Position numbers and translations under genes: made by a program. The notes under the pieces were generated by a model. It made no database searches, had not been told where the DNA came from, and saw nothing but the letters and a program-made list of their open reading frames with translations. Below are positions 24,471 through 33,761 of a DNA stretch of 64,000 bases, in pieces. The number at the start of each line of letters is the position of its first letter. The first letter of the stretch is position 1. The stretch lies in the NCBI RefSeq assembly GCF_003790525.1, contig NZ_CP033634.1. The stretch is one strand, 5' to 3'. This stretch comes from Escherichia coli. Its GTDB lineage: Bacteria; Pseudomonadota; Gammaproteobacteria; Enterobacterales; Enterobacteriaceae.

Positions 24471-25078
24471 TGCTCTGATTCTGACTACTGCAGTGTTGTT
24501 CTGTCTGCCGGGCGCACCTTCGGCTCCCGGCTGCCTGGCGGCATCCGGTCGTCAGGCCCGACTCCGACAGGCAGCTGCTGGCGCACCCGCCAGTCTCCGC
24601 CGAACCCGCTGGCGCGGTTTCGGGCTGTCGCTACGGTCCGATGCGTGAAAACCCCGGGCTTGCAGCGACCGTTCCGGTCGCGCCGCCTCTGTCGCGCCGT
24701 GGCCTGCGCTCCAGGCATCCCGGCAAAAAGACGCCGGGATGTAAGGCGCAACGCCGTTTCGCAAACCGCGCTTCACGTCGTTGCTGCGGGTCCCTGCTCA
24801 TTGCCTGCCGGGTGCCACACACCCGTATGAGTCCCTGTCGCCGGGGGCATAGACAGCCACAACCTGCCGCACTGACTGTCCAGGGTAAATGAACAGCCCA
24901 CAAAATTTTTTACCCAGAACCCGGTAAAAAATTTTGCGTTCTGCCCAGGACAGGTGCGTCAGGCCGTGGCAGTGATGCCCCTTGCGGCGAAGGTTCTCAA
25001 ACGGGTGAAGTTCATACCACAGGGAATACAGCAGCAGGTTCCCGCGAAACGTCAAAACCGCGGCTCCCGAAACTCAAC
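24471..25078. repeat. Leading-region direct repeat, copy 1 of 3 (about 0.6 kb), candidate ssi/Frpo-type element
   Basis: Near-identical to 27800-28427 and 33201-33761; GC-rich, rich in internal inverted repeats; boundaries approximate. Confidence 0.8.
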
Positions 25079-25318
25079 GGGTGATGTTCTTTAAAAATCA
25101 GGATTTATTTCAGGCTCCGGCAATACGCATTTATGTGTTCTGTCAGTCATCCGGCTGGCAGGTAATGAGAACGCAGGAACAGAAGGAGGAAAACACCGGA
25201 GAACGTCAGACGCAGATATGAAAAAAGCAGGTCAGGGACCTGCTTAATCCACGCCGTAAGAATTGCGCAACCAATTTTGACGGCATTGTTAACCAATTTG
25301 TCATAAGGAGTTTCATTT

Positions 25319-25549
25319 ATGACGGTAAGTATTGTTTCACCTTCCGCAGCGGCTGTAAAGCCCCGCCGTCATCCCCGTTTCAGACGCGAAGACATCCCCG
25401 CGCCGGAAATTGACCCCGTGCTGAAAGCCTTCGGGCGACACATAGCCCGGAGTTTTCACCGGGGGCGTGGTGTACACATCCCCGCCATGAAAAACACGGC
25501 CTTCGGGCAGGTGCTCCGCACACTCGAACTGAAACGCGCTTTTAACTGA
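25319..25549 (+). CDS. Hypothetical small basic protein (76 aa) downstream of repeat copy 1
   Basis: ORF with RBS AAGGAG; no family recognised. Confidence 0.4.
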   Translation: MTVSIVSPSAAAVKPRRHPRFRREDIPAPEIDPVLKAFGRHIARSFHRGRGVHIPAMKNTAFGQVLRTLELKRAFN

Positions 25550-25600
25550 TGAGGTGAGCCGCCCCGCGAGGGGCGGCAACAGATGGAAGGAGAACATTTT

Positions 25601-26962
25601 ATGACATTAGCAGCAATCACCATGACCGCCCCGGAAGCCGCCAACCCTGTGCAGATGTACCGCGCGACCTACTCACCGGATGACAACAAACTGCGCCTGT
25701 ATGCCGCGTCACGTCTTGACCCGGAGACGTATAAAAAAGTGCATGATGCCGGTTTTCGCTGGGCACCCAAACAGGCGCTGTTTGTCGCGCCAGCCTGGAC
25801 ACCGGGCCGGGAAGACGTGCTCCTCTCACTTGCCGGAGAGATTGAGGATGAAGACAGCACGCTCGCTGAACGTCAGGAAGCACGGGCGGAGCGGTTTACC
25901 GGATACAGCGGAAAGCGGGCCAGTGAATCCGCACAGGCACTTGATGAAGTGGAAAGACTGGCCGCGATGATCCCGCCCGGTCAGCCCATTCTTGTGGGGC
26001 ATCACAGCGAACGCCGCGCCCGTCGTGATGCGCAGCGTATTGAAAACGGCATGAAACGTGCCGTGATGCTCTTTGAGCGTGCGGAATACTGGGAGGAGCG
26101 GGCGCGGTCGGCACTGCTTCACGCGAAGTATAAAGAACGCCCGGACGTTCGCTGGCGTCGTATCAAAAAAATCGAAGCGGATTTGCGCAAGGCTGAAAAG
26201 ACCATCGCGCAGTCGCAGAAATATCTGACGATGTGGCGGGCTGAATCGCTGGATCTGAATATGGCAAAACTCATCAGCAGTCATGACCATATCAGCGCCT
26301 GTTTCCCGCTGGACAGGTATCCGCGCCCGGCAGAAAAAAGCCAGTATGAAGGAAGTCGATCGTTATGGTCGGCCCTGGATGATGACATCATCACCACGGA
26401 GCAGGCCCGCGAAATTGCGATCCGCTGTCATGAACGGCAGATTCAGCATCAACAACGCTGGGTTAACCACTATCATAACCGCCTGATCTATGAGCGTGCC
26501 ATGCTGGACGAAAGCGGCGGCGTGGTTACCCGGACACAGGATTTTGAGCCGGGCGGACAGGTTTTCAGCCGGGGCGAGTGGCTGACCATCATCCGCGTGA
26601 ACAAAAGCAACGGGGCGGTGAGTTCAGTCACAACGCCGAATTACAGTTTTCTCGGGTACAGCGGCACGATGAAAGTGACACCCGATCGCATCACGGACTA
26701 CAAAGCACCATCGGCAGAAGAGGCTGCCGTCGCCAGTCAGGCCGCGAAGCGTCCGCCGGTAGTCAACTATCCGGGGGAAGGTTTCCGGGAAATGACAAAG
26801 GCGCAGTGGGCCGCCCTGCCCCGGGACTGTAAGGCCGTGCGCAGTGTGGCAGAGACAGAAGACCACGGGGCATACCGCTACCGCCGCACAATGGACAATA
26901 ATTTCCGCCTGGTGAATGTGTATATCACTGACATGAAAATCACGGAAATCCCACAGAAATAA
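25601..26962 (+). CDS. Conserved plasmid leading-region protein of unknown function (about 453 aa)
   Basis: Large ORF with RBS GGAAGGAG before MTLAAITM; position between repeat copies typical of leading-region genes. Confidence 0.65.
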   Translation: MTLAAITMTAPEAANPVQMYRATYSPDDNKLRLYAASRLDPETYKKVHDAGFRWAPKQALFVAPAWTPGREDVLLSLAGEIEDEDSTLAERQEARAERFTGYSGKRASESAQALDEVERLAAMIPPGQPILVGHHSERRARRDAQRIENGMKRAVMLFERAEYWEERARSALLHAKYKERPDVRWRRIKKIEADLRKAEKTIAQSQKYLTMWRAESLDLNMAKLISSHDHISACFPLDRYPRPAEKSQYEGSRSLWSALDDDIITTEQAREIAIRCHERQIQHQQRWVNHYHNRLIYERAMLDESGGVVTRTQDFEPGGQVFSRGEWLTIIRVNKSNGAVSSVTTPNYSFLGYSGTMKVTPDRITDYKAPSAEEAAVASQAAKRPPVVNYPGEGFREMTKAQWAALPRDCKAVRSVAETEDHGAYRYRRTMDNNFRLVNVYITDMKITEIPQK

Positions 26963-27008
26963 GGTATATCCCCCCGGGAAATCCCCGGGGGATGACGGAG
27001 ATAATGAC

Positions 27009-27572
27009 ATGCACAGTCAGTTAAGAGAACGTATCCGGCTGATGCGCGCAAGGCTGGATAACGCCGCGCCGGTTGCTGAAATCCGGGCTGAATCTCAGCT
27101 TTTTGTGACTCCTGCCCCGGTCTGTGATCGCCTGGTGACGCTGGCGGAAATCAGCAACCGTGATCACATTCTGGAACCCTCTGCCGGCACCGGGGCCATA
27201 CTGCTGGCGATTCGGGATACCGCGCCGGAGGCCATGTGTGATGCGGTGGAGATTAACAGCGGGCTGGTCCGGTATCTGCGGGAAAATTTTAACGGTGTCA
27301 GGGTACAGTGTGGCGACTTCATGGAATGGCAGCCGGTGCAGTATTACAGCCGGATCATTATGAATCCGCCGTTCAGTCACGGGCAGGATATCCGGCATAT
27401 CCTGCGGGCTTTTTCCCTGTTGCGTCCGGGGGGCGTTCTGGTTGCCGTCTGTCTCAACGGGCCGCGCCAGCAGGAGAAGCTGTTACCGTTTTCTGACGTC
27501 CGCGAGGAGCTGCCGCGCGGCACGTTTGCTTATACCGATGTCCCGACGATGATTATTCGTTTGCGTGCCTGA
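27009..27572 (+). CDS. Class I SAM-dependent methyltransferase with NPPF motif (putative second orphan DNA/RNA amino-methyltransferase)
   Basis: ILEPSAGTGAIL (motif I) and IIMNPPFSHG (motif IV NPPF). Confidence 0.75.
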   Translation: MHSQLRERIRLMRARLDNAAPVAEIRAESQLFVTPAPVCDRLVTLAEISNRDHILEPSAGTGAILLAIRDTAPEAMCDAVEINSGLVRYLRENFNGVRVQCGDFMEWQPVQYYSRIIMNPPFSHGQDIRHILRAFSLLRPGGVLVAVCLNGPRQQEKLLPFSDVREELPRGTFAYTDVPTMIIRLRA

Positions 27573-27751
27573 TGACACAGGGCTGGCGGGAGGATAAATG
27601 CCCGTCTGTCCGCGCCGGGAAAAGACCGCGCGCCGGTGGCGCTGAAAGGGGCCGCGCTCACGCGCCGCCCCTTTCATTACGCGGACGTTCTGATGGGGGC
27701 TTCTGTCTTTTCAGACCTGTCATTTGTCTGTTACTGATGATGTTGTTGTTC

Positions 27752-32669: not shown

Positions 32670-32745
32670 CCCCGTAGTAAGTTAATTTTCATTAACCACC
32701 ACGAGGCATCCCTATGTCTAGTCCACATCAGGATAGCCTCTTACC
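32670..32745 (-). ncRNA. sok: Sok-like antisense RNA (approximate placement)
   Basis: Inferred from the known hok/mok/sok architecture (antisense to the mok initiation region); ends not determined. Confidence 0.35.
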
Positions 32746-32926
32746 GCGCTTTGCGCAAGGAGAAGAAGGCCATGAAACTACCACGAAGTTCCCTTGTCTG
32801 GTGTGTGTTGATCGTGTGTCTCACACTGTTGATATTCACTTATCTGACACGAAAATCGCTGTGCGAGATTCGTTACAGAGACGGACACAGGGAGGTGGCG
32901 GCTTTCATGGCTTACGAATCCGGTAA
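32714..32926 (+). CDS. mok: Mok, modulator-of-killing reading frame overlapping hok
   Basis: 70-aa ORF starting upstream of and overlapping hok in another frame. Confidence 0.65.
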
Positions 32927-32930
32927 GTAG
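32772..32930 (+). CDS. hok: Hok-family membrane toxin (52 aa), type I toxin-antitoxin
   Basis: [52 protein letters not shown]; below the ORF-track length cut-off. Confidence 0.9.
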
Positions 32931-32939
32931 CAACCTGGA

Positions 32940-32961
32940 GGCGGGCGCAGGCCCGCCTTTT
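32940..32961 (+). terminator. Rho-independent terminator after hok
   Basis: GGCGGGC GCAG GCCCGCC followed by TTTT. Confidence 0.65.
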
Positions 32962-33200
32962 CAGGACTGATGCTGGTCTGACTACTGAAGCGCCTTTATA
33001 AAGGGGCTGCTGGTTCGCCGGTAGCCCCTTTCTCCTTGCTGATGTTGTACGGGCATGAACAACCTGACTTCAGGAAGGTCGTTTCCCTTCAGGAACGGGG
33101 ATGAACGCGCGCCTGCGGCGCCCGTTCTTTTCCCCCGCCTTCTCTGGTTACGGCCTGTCAGAAATCACATCACCTTCCCTGTGATTATTCTCTTTTTCTT

Positions 33201-33761
33201 CCTGCTCTGATTCTGACTACTGCAGTGTTGTCCTGTCTGCTGGCGCACCTGCCAGTCTCCGCCGAACCCGCTGGCGCGGTTTCGGGCTGTCGCTACGGTC
33301 CGATGCGTGAAAACCCCGGGCTTGCAGCGACCGTTCCGGTCGCGCCGCCTCTGTCGCGCCGTGGCCTGCGCTCCTGGCATCCCGGCAAAAAGACGCCGGG
33401 ATGTAAGGCGCAACGCCGTTTCGCAAACCGCGCTTCACGTCGTTGCTGCGGGTCCCTGCCCGTTGTTGTGTCCGGTGCCATTCACCTGTTTAAGCCCCTG
33501 TCGCCGGGGGCTGATACAGCCACAACCTGCCGCACTGACTGTCCAGGGTAAATGAACAGCCCACAAAATTTTTTACCCAAAACCCGGTAAAAAATTTTGC
33601 GTTCTGCCCAGGACAGGTGCGTCAGGCCGTGGCAGTGATGCCCCTTGCGGCGAAGGTTCTCAAACAGGTGATGGTGAATACCGGAGGGAACAAAGAGCAG
33701 GTCCCCGCAAAACGTCAAAACCGCGGCTCCCGAAACTCAACAGATGATGGGGGCTGAAAAC
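33201..33761. repeat. Leading-region direct repeat, copy 3 of 3, with an internal deletion of about 70 bp relative to copies 1 and 2
   Basis: Lacks the segment cgggcgcaccttcggctcccggctgcctggcggcatccggtcgtcaggcccgactccgacaggcagctg present in the other copies. Confidence 0.8.

What the first reader, a model, noticed from the sequence alone, without database searches (positions are those of the whole stretch)
24471..33761. Three ~0.6-kb near-identical direct repeats punctuate the leading region, each upstream of a gene block; the third carries a ~70-bp internal deletion
Copies at about 24471-25078, 27800-28427 and 33201-33761 are GC-rich, internally structured and precede the 25319/25601 genes, ssb, and the 33782/34187 genes. 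Their periodic placement in front of leading-region operons suggests repeated regulatory or priming modules. ORFs drawn inside them look spurious (Arg/Pro/Cys-rich, overlapping on both strands). The deletion in copy 3 lies between short direct repeats (CTGTCTGC ... CTGGCGCACC), suggesting slippage.
Basis: seen in the sequence. Interest (0 to 1): 0.5.

Follow-up and report, generated by a model that had tools for sequence, protein, structure and literature searches.

The report
Repeated single-stranded-DNA promoters (Frpo/ssi)
The three 0.6-kb repeats are copies of the known Frpo/ssi element of F-like plasmids: DNA that folds into a long hairpin on the transferred single strand and so lets the new host transcribe early "leading" genes, and prime DNA synthesis, before the plasmid becomes double-stranded.

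Summary
There are three direct repeats at 24459-25086, 27789-28427 and 33191-33761. Copies 2 and 3 are 98.5% identical and copy 1 is 93.5% identical to copy 2. Copy 3 lacks exactly 70 nt.

The window is an IncF leading region. The nic-site homologue lies on the minus strand, so the minus strand is the transferred strand and the template for the + strand genes. On that strand each repeat contains a ~319-nt imperfect hairpin (about -101 kcal/mol). These are the three deepest folding minima of the leading region. The hairpins align full-length with the experimentally defined F ssiD/Frpo (80-87%) and with F Frpo2 (~94%). Pairing is kept by compensatory changes across IncF, IncI, Serratia and metagenome relatives.

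The repeats sit upstream of a DUF3560/methyltransferase operon, of ssb-psiB-psiA, and of ygeA/ygeB.

Other points:
- F's Frpo2 is a recombinant of copy-1 and copy-2 types.
- The 70-nt deletion appears private to this plasmid.
- The left ~290 nt of each repeat lies outside the minimal Frpo. It is a separately conserved structured module of unknown role.

The parts
24459..25086 (-). Repeat copy 1. It is active as the minus (transferred) strand and drives + strand transcription toward 25319/25601.
   Evidence: It is 93.5% identical to copy 2, and F ssiD aligns to 25075-24742 at 80%.
27789..28427 (-). Repeat copy 2, upstream of ssb. It is the counterpart of F Frpo2/ssp1b.
   Evidence: F ssiD aligns to 28419-28070 at 87%, and the F Frpo2 region is ~94.5% identical.
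33191..33761 (-). Repeat copy 3, upstream of ygeA/ygeB homologues. It is the counterpart of F Frpo1/ssp1a and carries a 70-nt deletion in its left module (junction 33236|33237).
   Evidence: F ssiD aligns to 33753-33404 at 87%. The deletion is absent from p4_0.1.
24756..25073 (-). T-strand hairpin of copy 1: 318 nt, 123 pairs, -100.5 kcal/mol.
   Evidence: It is one of the three deepest minima in the sliding-fold scan.
28084..28402 (-). T-strand hairpin of copy 2: 319 nt, 123 pairs, -101.1 kcal/mol, with 8 G.T pairs. The + strand folds ~10 kcal/mol worse.
   Evidence: Family covariation is shown.
33418..33736 (-). T-strand hairpin of copy 3: 319 nt, 122 pairs, -101.8 kcal/mol.
28180..28240 (-). 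Inferred promoter elements on the 3' arm of the copy-2 hairpin, read 5'->3' on the minus strand: UP-like AAAAAATTTTG (28240-28230), -35 TGGACA (28211-28206), and TG plus hexamer CTGTAT (28188-28180) running into an internal loop. The predicted start is near 28313 on the + strand. The equivalent elements in copy 1 lie at 24911-24851 and in copy 3 at 33574-33514.
   Evidence: Motif positions come and the duplex drawing. The -35 helix is sequence-conserved while the spacer helix covaries in 7 of 11 pairs. This is an inference and is not mapped; a rival assignment is TTGAGA (28329-28324), 17 nt, CATCAC (28306-28301) on the other arm.
27979..28083 (-). Module B of copy 2: three small GC-rich hairpins next to the base of the big hairpin. 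They include GCGACCG-GAA-CGGTCGC (27993-28009) and CATCCCGGC...GCCGGGATG (28044-28069). The same module lies at 24649-24755 in copy 1 and 33311-33417 in copy 3.
   Evidence: It is conserved in F, and ColIb-P9 has different hairpin sequences at the same positions.
27789..27978 (-). Module A of copy 2: a pyrimidine-rich (+ strand) left end followed by a series of GC-rich hairpins. It lies outside the minimal Frpo. The same module lies at 24459-24648 in copy 1 and at 33191-33310 in copy 3, where it is 70 nt shorter.
   Evidence: The fold z-score is -5.4. It was found in at least 5000 plasmid records. Together with the adjoining GCGACCG hairpin of module B (27839-28030) it is 95.3% identical to the IncI-gamma/K1 plasmid pSE11-1, while the hairpin is 48.6% identical. 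It is 76-82% identical in Kosakonia, with compensatory changes. F carries a different variant.
35898..35914 (-). oriT nic-site homologue GTAGTGTGT|GGTGCTTT. It defines the minus strand as the transferred strand, which enters 5' first and runs toward lower coordinates.
   Evidence: The F sequence GTGGGGTGTGGTGCTTT lies at the homologous place and on the same strand in F. The position of the cut is taken from my knowledge of F.
25319..27808 (+). Gene block downstream of copy 1: a 76-aa ORF (25319-25549), a DUF3560 protein (25601-26962), a class I SAM-dependent methyltransferase (27009-27572) and a 78-aa ORF (27572-27808). This block is absent from F.
   Evidence: The ORFs come, the annotation of the 97%-identical p4_0.1 and the NCBIfam methyltransferase hits.
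28449..32492 (+). Gene block downstream of copy 2: ssb (28449-28976), DUF905 (29032-29265), a ParB-like yfjB homologue (29329-31287), psiB (31339-31776) and psiA (31773-32492).
   Evidence: NCBIfam hits come, and the annotation.
33782..35008 (+). Gene block downstream of copy 3: a ygeA homologue (33782-34069, frameshifted here) and a DUF932 ygeB homologue (34187-35008).

Best explanation
Each repeat is a class-1 single-stranded-DNA promoter and single-strand initiation signal of the Frpo/ssiD/ssi1-3/ssp1 family.

Proposed sequence of events:
1. During conjugation the minus strand of this window enters the recipient 5' end first from the nic near 35905.
2. For each unit the genes enter first, then the repeat.
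3. As soon as both arms of the ~319-nt inverted repeat are inside, they snap back into a long imperfect duplex.
4. That duplex rebuilds a sigma-70 promoter. The likely elements are an A/T-rich UP-like tract next to the loop, a conserved TGGACA -35 box, a ~17-18-bp spacer helix, a TG motif, and a weak -10 hexamer that runs into an internal loop, so the DNA there is already partly melted.
5. Host RNA polymerase uses the other arm of the same strand as template. It transcribes out of the base of the hairpin into the downstream genes: the DUF3560/methyltransferase block, ssb-yfjA-yfjB-psiB-psiA, and ygeA-ygeB.
6. The RNA-DNA hybrid can also prime complementary-strand synthesis.
7. Once the region is double-stranded the hairpin can no longer form and the promoter switches off, giving a transient burst of expression ('zygotic induction').

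What is shown here: the homology, the strand, the fold, the covariation and the gene context. What is inferred from published work on F, ColIb-P9 and pESBL: ssDNA-dependent transcription, priming and shut-off. What is my own inference: the exact boxes and the transcription start.
For: - Homology to the characterised element. F ssiD/Frpo (D90178, taken from Supplementary file 4 of PMC11541004) aligns end to end with the minus strand at 28419-28070 and 33753-33404 (87%) and at 25075-24742 (80%). The F Frpo2 and Frpo1 regions are 85-94.5% identical to the copies.
- Strand. The nic homologue is on the minus strand at 35898-35914, as in F. The minus strand is therefore the template for all the downstream + strand genes.
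- Fold. Each copy forms a 318-319-nt hairpin with 122-123 pairs at about -101 kcal/mol. For the whole repeat the z-score is -15.6 on the T-strand against -9.0 on the + strand. The T-strand is ~10 kcal/mol better per hairpin and has 8-9 G.T pairs. In a 300-nt sliding fold over 14000-37000 these are the three deepest minima, -89 to -95 against a mean of -45.7 with sd 14.7.
- Covariation across 11 sequences (IncF, ColIb-P9 ssi1-3, Serratia, insect metagenome). 95.3% of cells are paired, against 40-46% when the partners are slid. 13 pairs changed on both sides, against 1-4 in slid controls. 0 of 500 shuffles reached the observed values for cells paired, pairs and cells changed on both sides, and the covariation score; the count of further pair types did not exceed the shuffles (157/500). 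The -35 helix is sequence-conserved and the spacer helix covaries in 7 of 11 pairs.
- Context matches F. Frpo2 lies upstream of ssb...psiA and Frpo1 upstream of ygeA/ygeB, and both are needed for early expression in transconjugants (PMC9849209). Class-1 promoters have 5' RACE-mapped starts in pESBL (PMC12672017). There is in vivo evidence that ssp1 transcripts prime conversion (bioRxiv 10.64898/2026.01.09.698686).
- No canonical double-stranded sigma-70 promoter is detected in the copy-2 repeat. This fits activity that is specific to ssDNA.
Against: - There are no expression or priming data for this particular plasmid.
- The -10 hexamer I assign (CTGTAT) is a poor match and lacks the usual A at -11.
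- A second assignment on the other arm (TTGAGA, 17 nt, CATCAC) cannot be excluded from sequence. I could not read the published figures that show the mapped boxes and starts.
- Copy 1 is separated from its first ORF by ~230 nt that carries an antisense RNA gene, so its regulation may differ.
- The first gene after copy 3 is frameshifted here.
- In F, deleting Frpo2 had no measurable effect on transfer frequency in laboratory matings (PMC9849209). Presence therefore does not prove importance.
Confidence: 0.9

Rival explanations
1. The repeats act mainly as origins for complementary-strand synthesis (single-strand initiation signals), and transcription of the downstream genes is a by-product.
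For: ssiD was first isolated as a priming signal in an M13 assay, and Frpo RNA primes Pol III in vitro (reviewed in PMC7690428). In vivo, loci downstream of ssp1a and ssp1b convert early in a rifampicin-sensitive way. The spacing of the three copies (3.3 and 5.3 kb) would give several restart points along the first 12 kb to enter.
Against: This is not exclusive with the promoter role. Each copy sits directly in front of a co-oriented operon, and in copies 2 and 3 a ribosome-binding site and start codon follow within ~20-50 nt of the repeat. [quoted passage not shown] Priming that started at the hairpin would convert and silence only the downstream genes.
Confidence: 0.35
2. The repeats are portable homology. 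They are recombination modules that shuffle or delete leading-region gene cassettes within and between plasmids, and they persist for that reason rather than for a biochemical activity.
For: F Frpo2 is a clean recombinant. It is copy-1 type at 13 consecutive diagnostic sites (28126-28161) and copy-2 type from 28178 onward, and F lacks the 3.3-kb block between copies 1 and 2. The chimeric F hairpin is weaker, at -83.6 against about -101 kcal/mol. An analogous hybrid repeat marks a 9.7-kb loss in an IncI plasmid (PMC3817090). Module A is 95% identical between IncF and IncI plasmids although their hairpins are only ~49% identical. Copies 2 and 3 are 98.5% identical here, against 92% for Frpo1 and Frpo2 in F, which suggests gene conversion.
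Against: Recombination is a consequence of any dispersed repeat. It does not explain the conserved hairpin with compensatory changes, the strand bias in folding, or the fixed orientation toward oriT.
Confidence: 0.3
3. The repeats encode small Arg/Pro-rich proteins or an RNA expressed from double-stranded DNA.
For: RefSeq annotation places 'hypothetical protein' CDSs under the repeats in many plasmids. ORFs of 60-110 codons are open on both strands.
Against: The ORFs change frame between copies that are 93-98% identical, because of 1-, 2- and 70-nt indels. Several frames are open at once, as expected at 60% GC. There are further indels in F. No Rfam family matches the repeats at E<=1.
Confidence: 0.03
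4. The repeats are chance or assembly duplications with no function.
For: None beyond the fact that the repeats are near-identical.
Against: The same arrangement occurs in hundreds to thousands of independent plasmid records. At least 420 records cover 80% or more of the 15-kb region, and module A is found in at least 5000 records, with 18 of 40 evenly sampled records holding 3 or more places.
Confidence: 0.01

Closest known systems
F plasmid Frpo1 (ssiD, ssp1a) and Frpo2 (ssp1b)
   Same: Sequence is 80-94% identical. The ~320-nt T-strand hairpin is the same, as is the orientation toward oriT. The positions match: copy 2 before ssb-yfjA-yfjB-psiB-psiA and copy 3 before ygeA-ygeB.
   Different: This plasmid has a third copy (copy 1) in front of a 76-aa/DUF3560/methyltransferase block that F lacks. 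F Frpo2 looks like the recombination product of copy-1 and copy-2 types. The left ~170 nt of the repeat (module A) is a different sequence variant in F. Copies 2 and 3 are far more alike here (98.5%) than Frpo1 and Frpo2 are in F (92%). The hairpins here are predicted to be more stable, at about -101 against -84 and -89 kcal/mol.
ColIb-P9 / pESBL ssi1-ssi3 (IncI1 class-1 ssDNA promoters)
   Same: There are three dispersed copies in the leading region, each before an operon. The hairpin architecture is the same, with A/T-rich tracts at the loop, a conserved CCCTGGAC box and a covarying spacer helix.
   Different: Hairpin sequence is only ~50-64% identical, and blastn finds just an 81-nt core at 80%. 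The basal part of the stem aligns poorly with the IncF type.
Class 2 (ssp2, 'Frpo3') and class 3 (ssp3) ssDNA promoters of F and pESBL
   Same: They work on the same principle and lie in the same region. A class-2 homologue is present in this window upstream of the ArdB/KlcA-like gene (22738-23201, 89.8% identical to F; it is the fourth-deepest T-strand fold, -79.7).
   Different: There is no sequence similarity to the three repeats. ssp2 has a reported replication-roadblock activity that has not been shown for class 1.
Single-strand origins (sso) of rolling-circle plasmids and phage complementary-strand origins
   Same: These are folded ssDNA recognised by host RNA polymerase or primase to start complementary-strand synthesis. 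The analogy is drawn in PMC7690428.
   Different: sso elements are not placed to express downstream protein genes and are unrelated in sequence. I did not test this comparison here.

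Membership tests
Frpo / ssiD / ssp1 (class-1 ssDNA promoters) | Sequence homology to the experimentally characterised F ssiD/Frpo element on the same strand | tested here: met
   The full-length 351-nt alignment to the window minus strand gives 87%, 87% and 80% identity, with E values of 1e-119 to 1e-79.
Frpo / ssiD / ssp1 (class-1 ssDNA promoters) | Location in the leading region, with the folding strand being the transferred strand and that strand being the template of the downstream genes | tested here: met
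   The nic homologue is on the minus strand at 35898-35914, between the SLT gene and traM, as in F. All downstream genes are on the + strand.
Frpo / ssiD / ssp1 (class-1 ssDNA promoters) | A long (~320-330 nt) imperfect stem-loop in the single strand, more stable than expected for its composition | tested here: met
   Hairpins are 318-319 nt with 122-123 pairs at about -101 kcal/mol. The z-score is -15.6 for the whole repeat. They are the top three minima of the region. Covariation passes the shuffle control (except on the count of further pair types) and the slide control.
Frpo / ssiD / ssp1 (class-1 ssDNA promoters) | -35 and -10 boxes rebuilt in the duplex stem, with mismatches at -10 | tested here: inconclusive
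   A conserved TGGACA (5 of 6 matches to TTGACA) sits in a sequence-conserved helix. It is followed by a covarying 17-18-bp helix, a TG motif, and a weak hexamer that enters an internal loop. A rival pair, TTGAGA, 17 nt, CATCAC, lies on the other arm. The standard promoter scan finds nothing at its threshold. I could not read the published box positions.
Frpo / ssiD / ssp1 (class-1 ssDNA promoters) | RNA polymerase-dependent transcription or priming from ssDNA, and silence as dsDNA | not testable with these tools
   This is shown for the F and IncI homologues in the literature but not for this plasmid.
Frpo / ssiD / ssp1 (class-1 ssDNA promoters) | Position immediately upstream of early-expressed leading genes (ssb, psiB, ygeA and similar) | tested here: met
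   The ssb ATG at 28449 is 22 nt after copy 2, and the ygeA-like ATG at 33782 is 21 nt after copy 3. Copy 1 lies ~230 nt before its first ORF.
Protein-coding genes (annotated hypothetical proteins inside the repeats) | A reading frame conserved among copies and relatives | tested here: not met
   Frames switch between the three copies, and indels of 1, 2 and 70 nt are tolerated.
Curated RNA families (Rfam 15) | A match to a covariance model | tested here: not met
   No hit falls within the three repeats at E<=1. The nearby hits are AS-pc01, sok, FinP and the traJ 5' UTR.

The most novel reading that the evidence does not exclude
The left ~290 nt of each repeat (modules A and B, for example 27789-28083) lies outside the minimal Frpo hairpin. 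It enters the recipient just after the hairpin. It may be an independent functional ssDNA element rather than a passenger.

Its primary sequence is better conserved than that of the promoter hairpin. Between this IncF plasmid and an IncI-gamma/K1 plasmid it is 95% identical, against 49% for the hairpin. In Kosakonia it is 76-82% identical, against 64-67%, with compensatory changes in its small hairpins. It exists in at least two alternative variants.

It could be a barrier that holds back complementary-strand synthesis arriving from later-entering DNA, which would prolong the single-stranded 'on' state of the adjacent promoter, as reported for ssp2. It could instead be an insulator or terminator for transcription on ssDNA, or a loading site for a host or plasmid protein.
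Probability: 0.3. Interest if true: 0.55.

Novelty: already known. Interest (0 to 1): 0.2.

Why it matters
These elements explain how a conjugative plasmid expresses anti-SOS, SSB, anti-restriction and methylase genes in the first minutes after entry, before it has a double-stranded template. That step decides whether resistance plasmids establish in new hosts.

For this window the value is correct annotation:
- Three non-coding ssDNA promoters should replace the spurious 'hypothetical protein' calls.
- The operon boundaries of the leading region become clear.
- The repeats are visibly the breakpoints at which leading-region gene blocks are lost (as in F) or exchanged.

Nothing here overturns current understanding. 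The only open thread is the conserved extension next to each hairpin.

Tried and rejected
- A scan of genome contigs for the 17-mer GCGACCGGAACGGTCGC (module B hairpin) returned mostly chance matches in high-GC genomes. Only a few loci were useful: Kosakonia L076, Citrobacter L011, and the mis-binned contigs L016, L033 and L102.
- I projected the copy-2 hairpin pairs onto copy 1 through the MAFFT alignment. This gave only 1 double change, 7 one-sided changes and 8 broken pairs. I therefore dropped the idea that the copy-1/copy-2 differences are mostly compensatory in register. Copy 1 re-pairs in a slightly different register with the same number of pairs.
- I tried to obtain the published -35/-10 boxes and transcription starts. 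Masai & Arai 1997 is not held, and the relevant figures of PMC9849209 and PMC12672017 are images or supplements that are not held.
- The standard promoter/terminator scan of copy 2 found no promoter and only one weak terminator-like site inside the hairpin arm. I therefore did not adopt a canonical intrinsic terminator as the role of module A/B.
- A coding interpretation of the internal ORFs was rejected.
- My first hairpin energies for F used offset coordinates. They were discarded and recomputed from matched stem ends.

Full report
**Observation**

The three repeats are real. Repeat finding, multiple alignment and blastn place them at 24459-25086, 27789-28427 and 33191-33761. Copies 2 and 3 are 98.5% identical over 525 nt. 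Copy 1 is 93.5% identical to copy 2 over 629 nt. Blastn of the three copies against the whole window found no fourth copy.

Copy 3 lacks exactly 70 nt. In copies 1 and 2 that segment is bounded by an imperfect direct repeat, CTGCCGGGCGCACC ... CTGCTGGCGCACC.

The repeats are 59-62% G+C in a 50.4% window. ORFs of 60-110 codons are open in several frames on both strands. The 'same' ORF changes frame from copy to copy because of 1-, 2- and 70-nt indels. The ORFs are therefore not genes, although RefSeq pipelines call hypothetical proteins there.

**Context and strand**

The 15 kb around the finding is 97% identical to the leading regions of many IncF plasmids. At least 420 of the 5000 best-scoring records cover 80% or more of it. 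The annotated neighbour p4_0.1 shows this gene order: klcA/ardB-like antirestriction, DUF1380, [copy 1], 76-aa ORF, DUF3560, SAM methyltransferase, [copy 2], ssb, DUF905, ParB-like, psiB, psiA, hok/sok, [copy 3], ygeA-like, DUF932, SLT (gene X), oriT, traM, traJ. My NCBIfam scans confirm the SSB, PsiB, PsiA, ParB-like and methyltransferase assignments.

A homologue of the F nic sequence, GTAGTGTGTGGTGCTTT, lies on the minus strand at 35898-35914 between the SLT gene and traM. The F sequence itself lies at the same place and on the same strand in F. The minus strand is therefore the transferred strand. It enters 5' first and runs toward lower coordinates, and it is the template for every + strand leading gene.

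**What the repeats are**

On the minus strand each repeat contains a 318-319-nt imperfect hairpin with 122-123 base pairs at about -101 kcal/mol. The hairpins lie at 24756-25073, 28084-28402 and 33418-33736.
- The whole copy-2 repeat folds with z = -15.6 on the minus strand against -9.0 on the plus strand.
- Per hairpin, the minus strand is about 10 kcal/mol better and uses 8-9 G.T pairs. Those pairs would be A.C mismatches on the other strand.
- In a 300-nt sliding fold of the transferred strand across 14000-37000, the three copies are the three deepest minima. They reach -89 to -95 kcal/mol against a mean of -45.7 with sd 14.7.

The experimentally defined F ssiD/Frpo sequence is printed in Supplementary file 4 of Samuel et al. 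2024. It aligns over its full 351 nt with the minus strand of copies 2 and 3 (87%) and of copy 1 (80%). The F Frpo2 region is ~94% identical.

I aligned eleven sequences: the three copies, F Frpo1 and Frpo2, ColIb-P9 ssi1-3, Serratia, and two insect-metagenome candidates.
- 95.3% of cells in the consensus hairpin are paired, against 40-46% when the partners are slid by 1-3 columns.
- 13 pairs carry changes on both sides, against 1-4 in the slid controls.
- 0 of 500 shuffles reach the observed values for cells paired, pairs and cells changed on both sides, and the covariation score; the count of further pair types does not exceed the shuffles (157/500).

**Comparison with the literature**

In F, Frpo1 lies upstream of ygeA/ygeB and Frpo2 upstream of ssb-yfjA-yfjB-psiB-psiA. 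Both are required for expression of those genes in transconjugants before double-strand conversion (PMC9849209). ColIb-P9 and pESBL carry three homologous ssi elements. These are now called class-1 ssDNA promoters, and their starts have been mapped by 5' RACE (PMC12672017). Samuel et al. counted 13,089 Frpo homologues in 6,006 conjugative elements. A 2026 preprint gives in vivo evidence that ssp1/Frpo transcripts also prime complementary-strand synthesis.

Copy 2 here is the positional and sequence counterpart of Frpo2/ssp1b, and copy 3 of Frpo1/ssp1a.

**Mechanism, and what is inferred**

The covariation pattern gives a lead on the promoter.
- The helix containing CCCTGGAC(A) and its complement is conserved in sequence across all relatives.
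- The next helix toward the stem base covaries freely, in 7 of 11 pairs. That is what one expects of a -35 box followed by a spacer.

Reading the 3' arm 5'->3' on the minus strand of copy 2 gives these elements in order:
- an A/T-rich UP-like tract, AAAAAATTTTG (28240-28230);
- an 8-nt bulge;
- TGGACA (28211-28206);
- a spacer of about 17-18 bp once a 3-nt bulge is looped out;
- a conserved TG;
- a weak hexamer, CTGTAT (28185-28180), which runs into an internal loop.

With the 5' arm as template, this predicts a start near 28313 and a ~135-nt leader before ssb. The equivalent positions are about 33647 for copy 3 and about 24985 for copy 1.

Two further observations fit this assignment. The truncated Frpo2 fragment used by Samuel et al. 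contains only the distal hairpin plus the 5' arm. They also mention an UP element.

An alternative on the other arm is TTGAGA (28329-28324), 17 nt, then CATCAC (28306-28301). I cannot exclude it, because the published figures were not readable.

ssDNA-dependent activity and shut-off after conversion are inferred from the homologues and are not shown here.

**Evolutionary points**

F lacks the 3.3-kb block between copies 1 and 2 (76-aa ORF, DUF3560, methyltransferase). It has a single repeat between the DUF1380/63-aa genes and ssb. At sites that distinguish copy 1 from copy 2, F Frpo2 is copy-1 type at 13 consecutive sites (28126-28161) and copy-2 type at every site from 28178 to the end of the hairpin. 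F Frpo2 is thus a recombinant. It is most simply explained as the scar of a deletion by homologous recombination between two class-1 copies.

Its predicted hairpin is the weakest of those compared: -83.6 kcal/mol with 115 pairs, against about -101 with 122-123 pairs here. A parallel hybrid repeat marks a 9.7-kb loss in an IncI plasmid (PMC3817090).

The high identity of copies 2 and 3 here (98.5%, against 92% reported for Frpo1 and Frpo2 in F) points to gene conversion.

The 70-nt deletion in copy 3 is absent from the close relative p4_0.1. It is also absent from all 15 full-coverage rows sampled in a junction search, each of which spans 155-160 nt in two pieces. The same 70 nt are present in IncI plasmids. 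The deletion is therefore derived and apparently private to this plasmid.

**The part of the repeat that is not Frpo**

ssiD corresponds only to the hairpin. The left ~290 nt of each repeat consists of two modules.
- Module B, next to the hairpin base, holds three small hairpins. One is the perfect GCGACCG-GAA-CGGTCGC.
- Module A is a run of GC-rich hairpins ending in a pyrimidine-rich (+ strand) tract.

This segment folds better than shuffles, with z = -5.4 on the minus strand. It occurs in at least 5000 plasmid records.

It is more conserved than the promoter hairpin:
- Against the IncI-gamma/K1 plasmid pSE11-1, module A plus the GCGACCG hairpin is 95.3% identical, while the big hairpin is 48.6% identical.
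- Against three units in a Kosakonia cowanii plasmid contig it is 76-82% identical, against 64-67% for the hairpin.
- 12 of 58 predicted pairs differ on both sides between the window-type rows and the Kosakonia rows.

F, a Citrobacter contig and some Salmonella candidates carry a second, unrelated-looking variant of module A at the same place. I found no published function for this extension.

It enters the recipient just after the hairpin. It therefore lies between the promoter and any complementary-strand synthesis coming from later-entering DNA. That position makes a barrier role like the one reported for ssp2 conceivable. Recent inter-plasmid recombination could also explain part of the conservation. 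This is the only element of the locus that might hold something new, and I rate it as speculative.

**Verdict**

The three repeats are class-1 ssDNA promoters and single-strand initiation signals of the Frpo family. Interest is low, apart from the conserved extension and the clean evidence that these repeats are the breakpoints of leading-region rearrangements.

Noticed in passing
window 33782-34069 (+): The ygeA homologue directly downstream of copy 3 has a 1-nt deletion in a G/A homopolymer run (GGG-AGGGAAAAAAC here, GGGAAGAAAAAAAAC in F and p4_0.1). Translation stops after 35 codons instead of 95. This is either a pseudogene or a homopolymer sequencing error. In F, deleting ygeA strongly lowered transfer (PMC9849209).
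   Followed up: yes
window 25222-25324 (-): There is an Rfam AS-pc01 hit (86.7 bits; 'antisense to pHK01_035') between copy 1 and its first ORF. It overlaps the ribosome-binding site and start codon of the 76-aa ORF at 25319. It ends at a minus-strand intrinsic terminator, AGCAGGTCCCTGACCTGCTTTTTT. Its template is the + strand, so it could only be made after double-strand conversion. It is a possible off-switch for this operon.
   Followed up: partly
window 19025-20689: An IS110-family element of ~1.66 kb (transposase 19127-20143, NCBIfam NF033542, E = 6e-104) splits the sequence that in F lies immediately upstream of the DNA methylase gene, the class-3 ssDNA promoter region. The F homology is interrupted between 19024 and 20690, 154 nt before the methylase ATG at 20840. 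The insertion probably disrupts that hairpin.
   Followed up: partly
window 22738-23201: This is a homologue of the F region upstream of yfgB/ardB, the class-2 ssDNA promoter ssp2/'Frpo3' (89.8% identity). It is the fourth-deepest T-strand fold in the leading region (-79.7 kcal/mol per 300 nt) and lies just upstream of the antirestriction gene at 23197.
   Followed up: partly
window 35122-35310 (-): This stretch is 97.9% identical over 190 nt to F ssiE (D90180), a different single-strand initiation signal. It lies between the DUF932 gene and the SLT gene near oriT.
   Followed up: no
window 27752-27786 (+): A perfect hexanucleotide array, (CTGCTA) x 5.8, sits at the left edge of copy 2. It forms the Leu/Phe-rich C-terminal tail (LLLLLLLLFFFLLL*) of the 78-aa ORF 27572-27808, whose stop codon lies inside the repeat. 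F has a different CT-rich simple repeat, (CTCTTC)n, at the same place.
   Followed up: no
window 29440-30060: There is a strong T-strand fold (-77.9 kcal/mol per 300 nt, the fifth-deepest in the region) inside the coding sequence of the ParB-like yfjB homologue. It has no obvious promoter role.
   Followed up: no
L076 (Kosakonia cowanii NZ_JAROAU010000002.1) 3358-4204, 5609-6455, 10669-11515: Three dispersed units each combine a diverged Frpo-like hairpin (loop flanked by AAAAAGTTTT tracts) with a well-conserved module A/B. One is followed by a (CACCCG)n simple repeat. The arrangement resembles a three-copy leading region in another genus.
   Followed up: partly
L016/L017 (Streptomyces morookaense), L033 (Oscillibacter MAG), L102 (Collinsella MAG): Small contigs in non-enterobacterial assemblies carry 85-93%-identical copies of these IncF/IncI repeats. 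They are most likely contamination or mis-binned enterobacterial plasmid fragments.
   Followed up: no
window 32598-32774 (+) and 36712-36821: The expected Rfam hits are present: the sok antitoxin RNA (hok/sok between psiA and copy 3), and the traJ 5' UTR with FinP. They confirm the IncF backbone layout.
   Followed up: no
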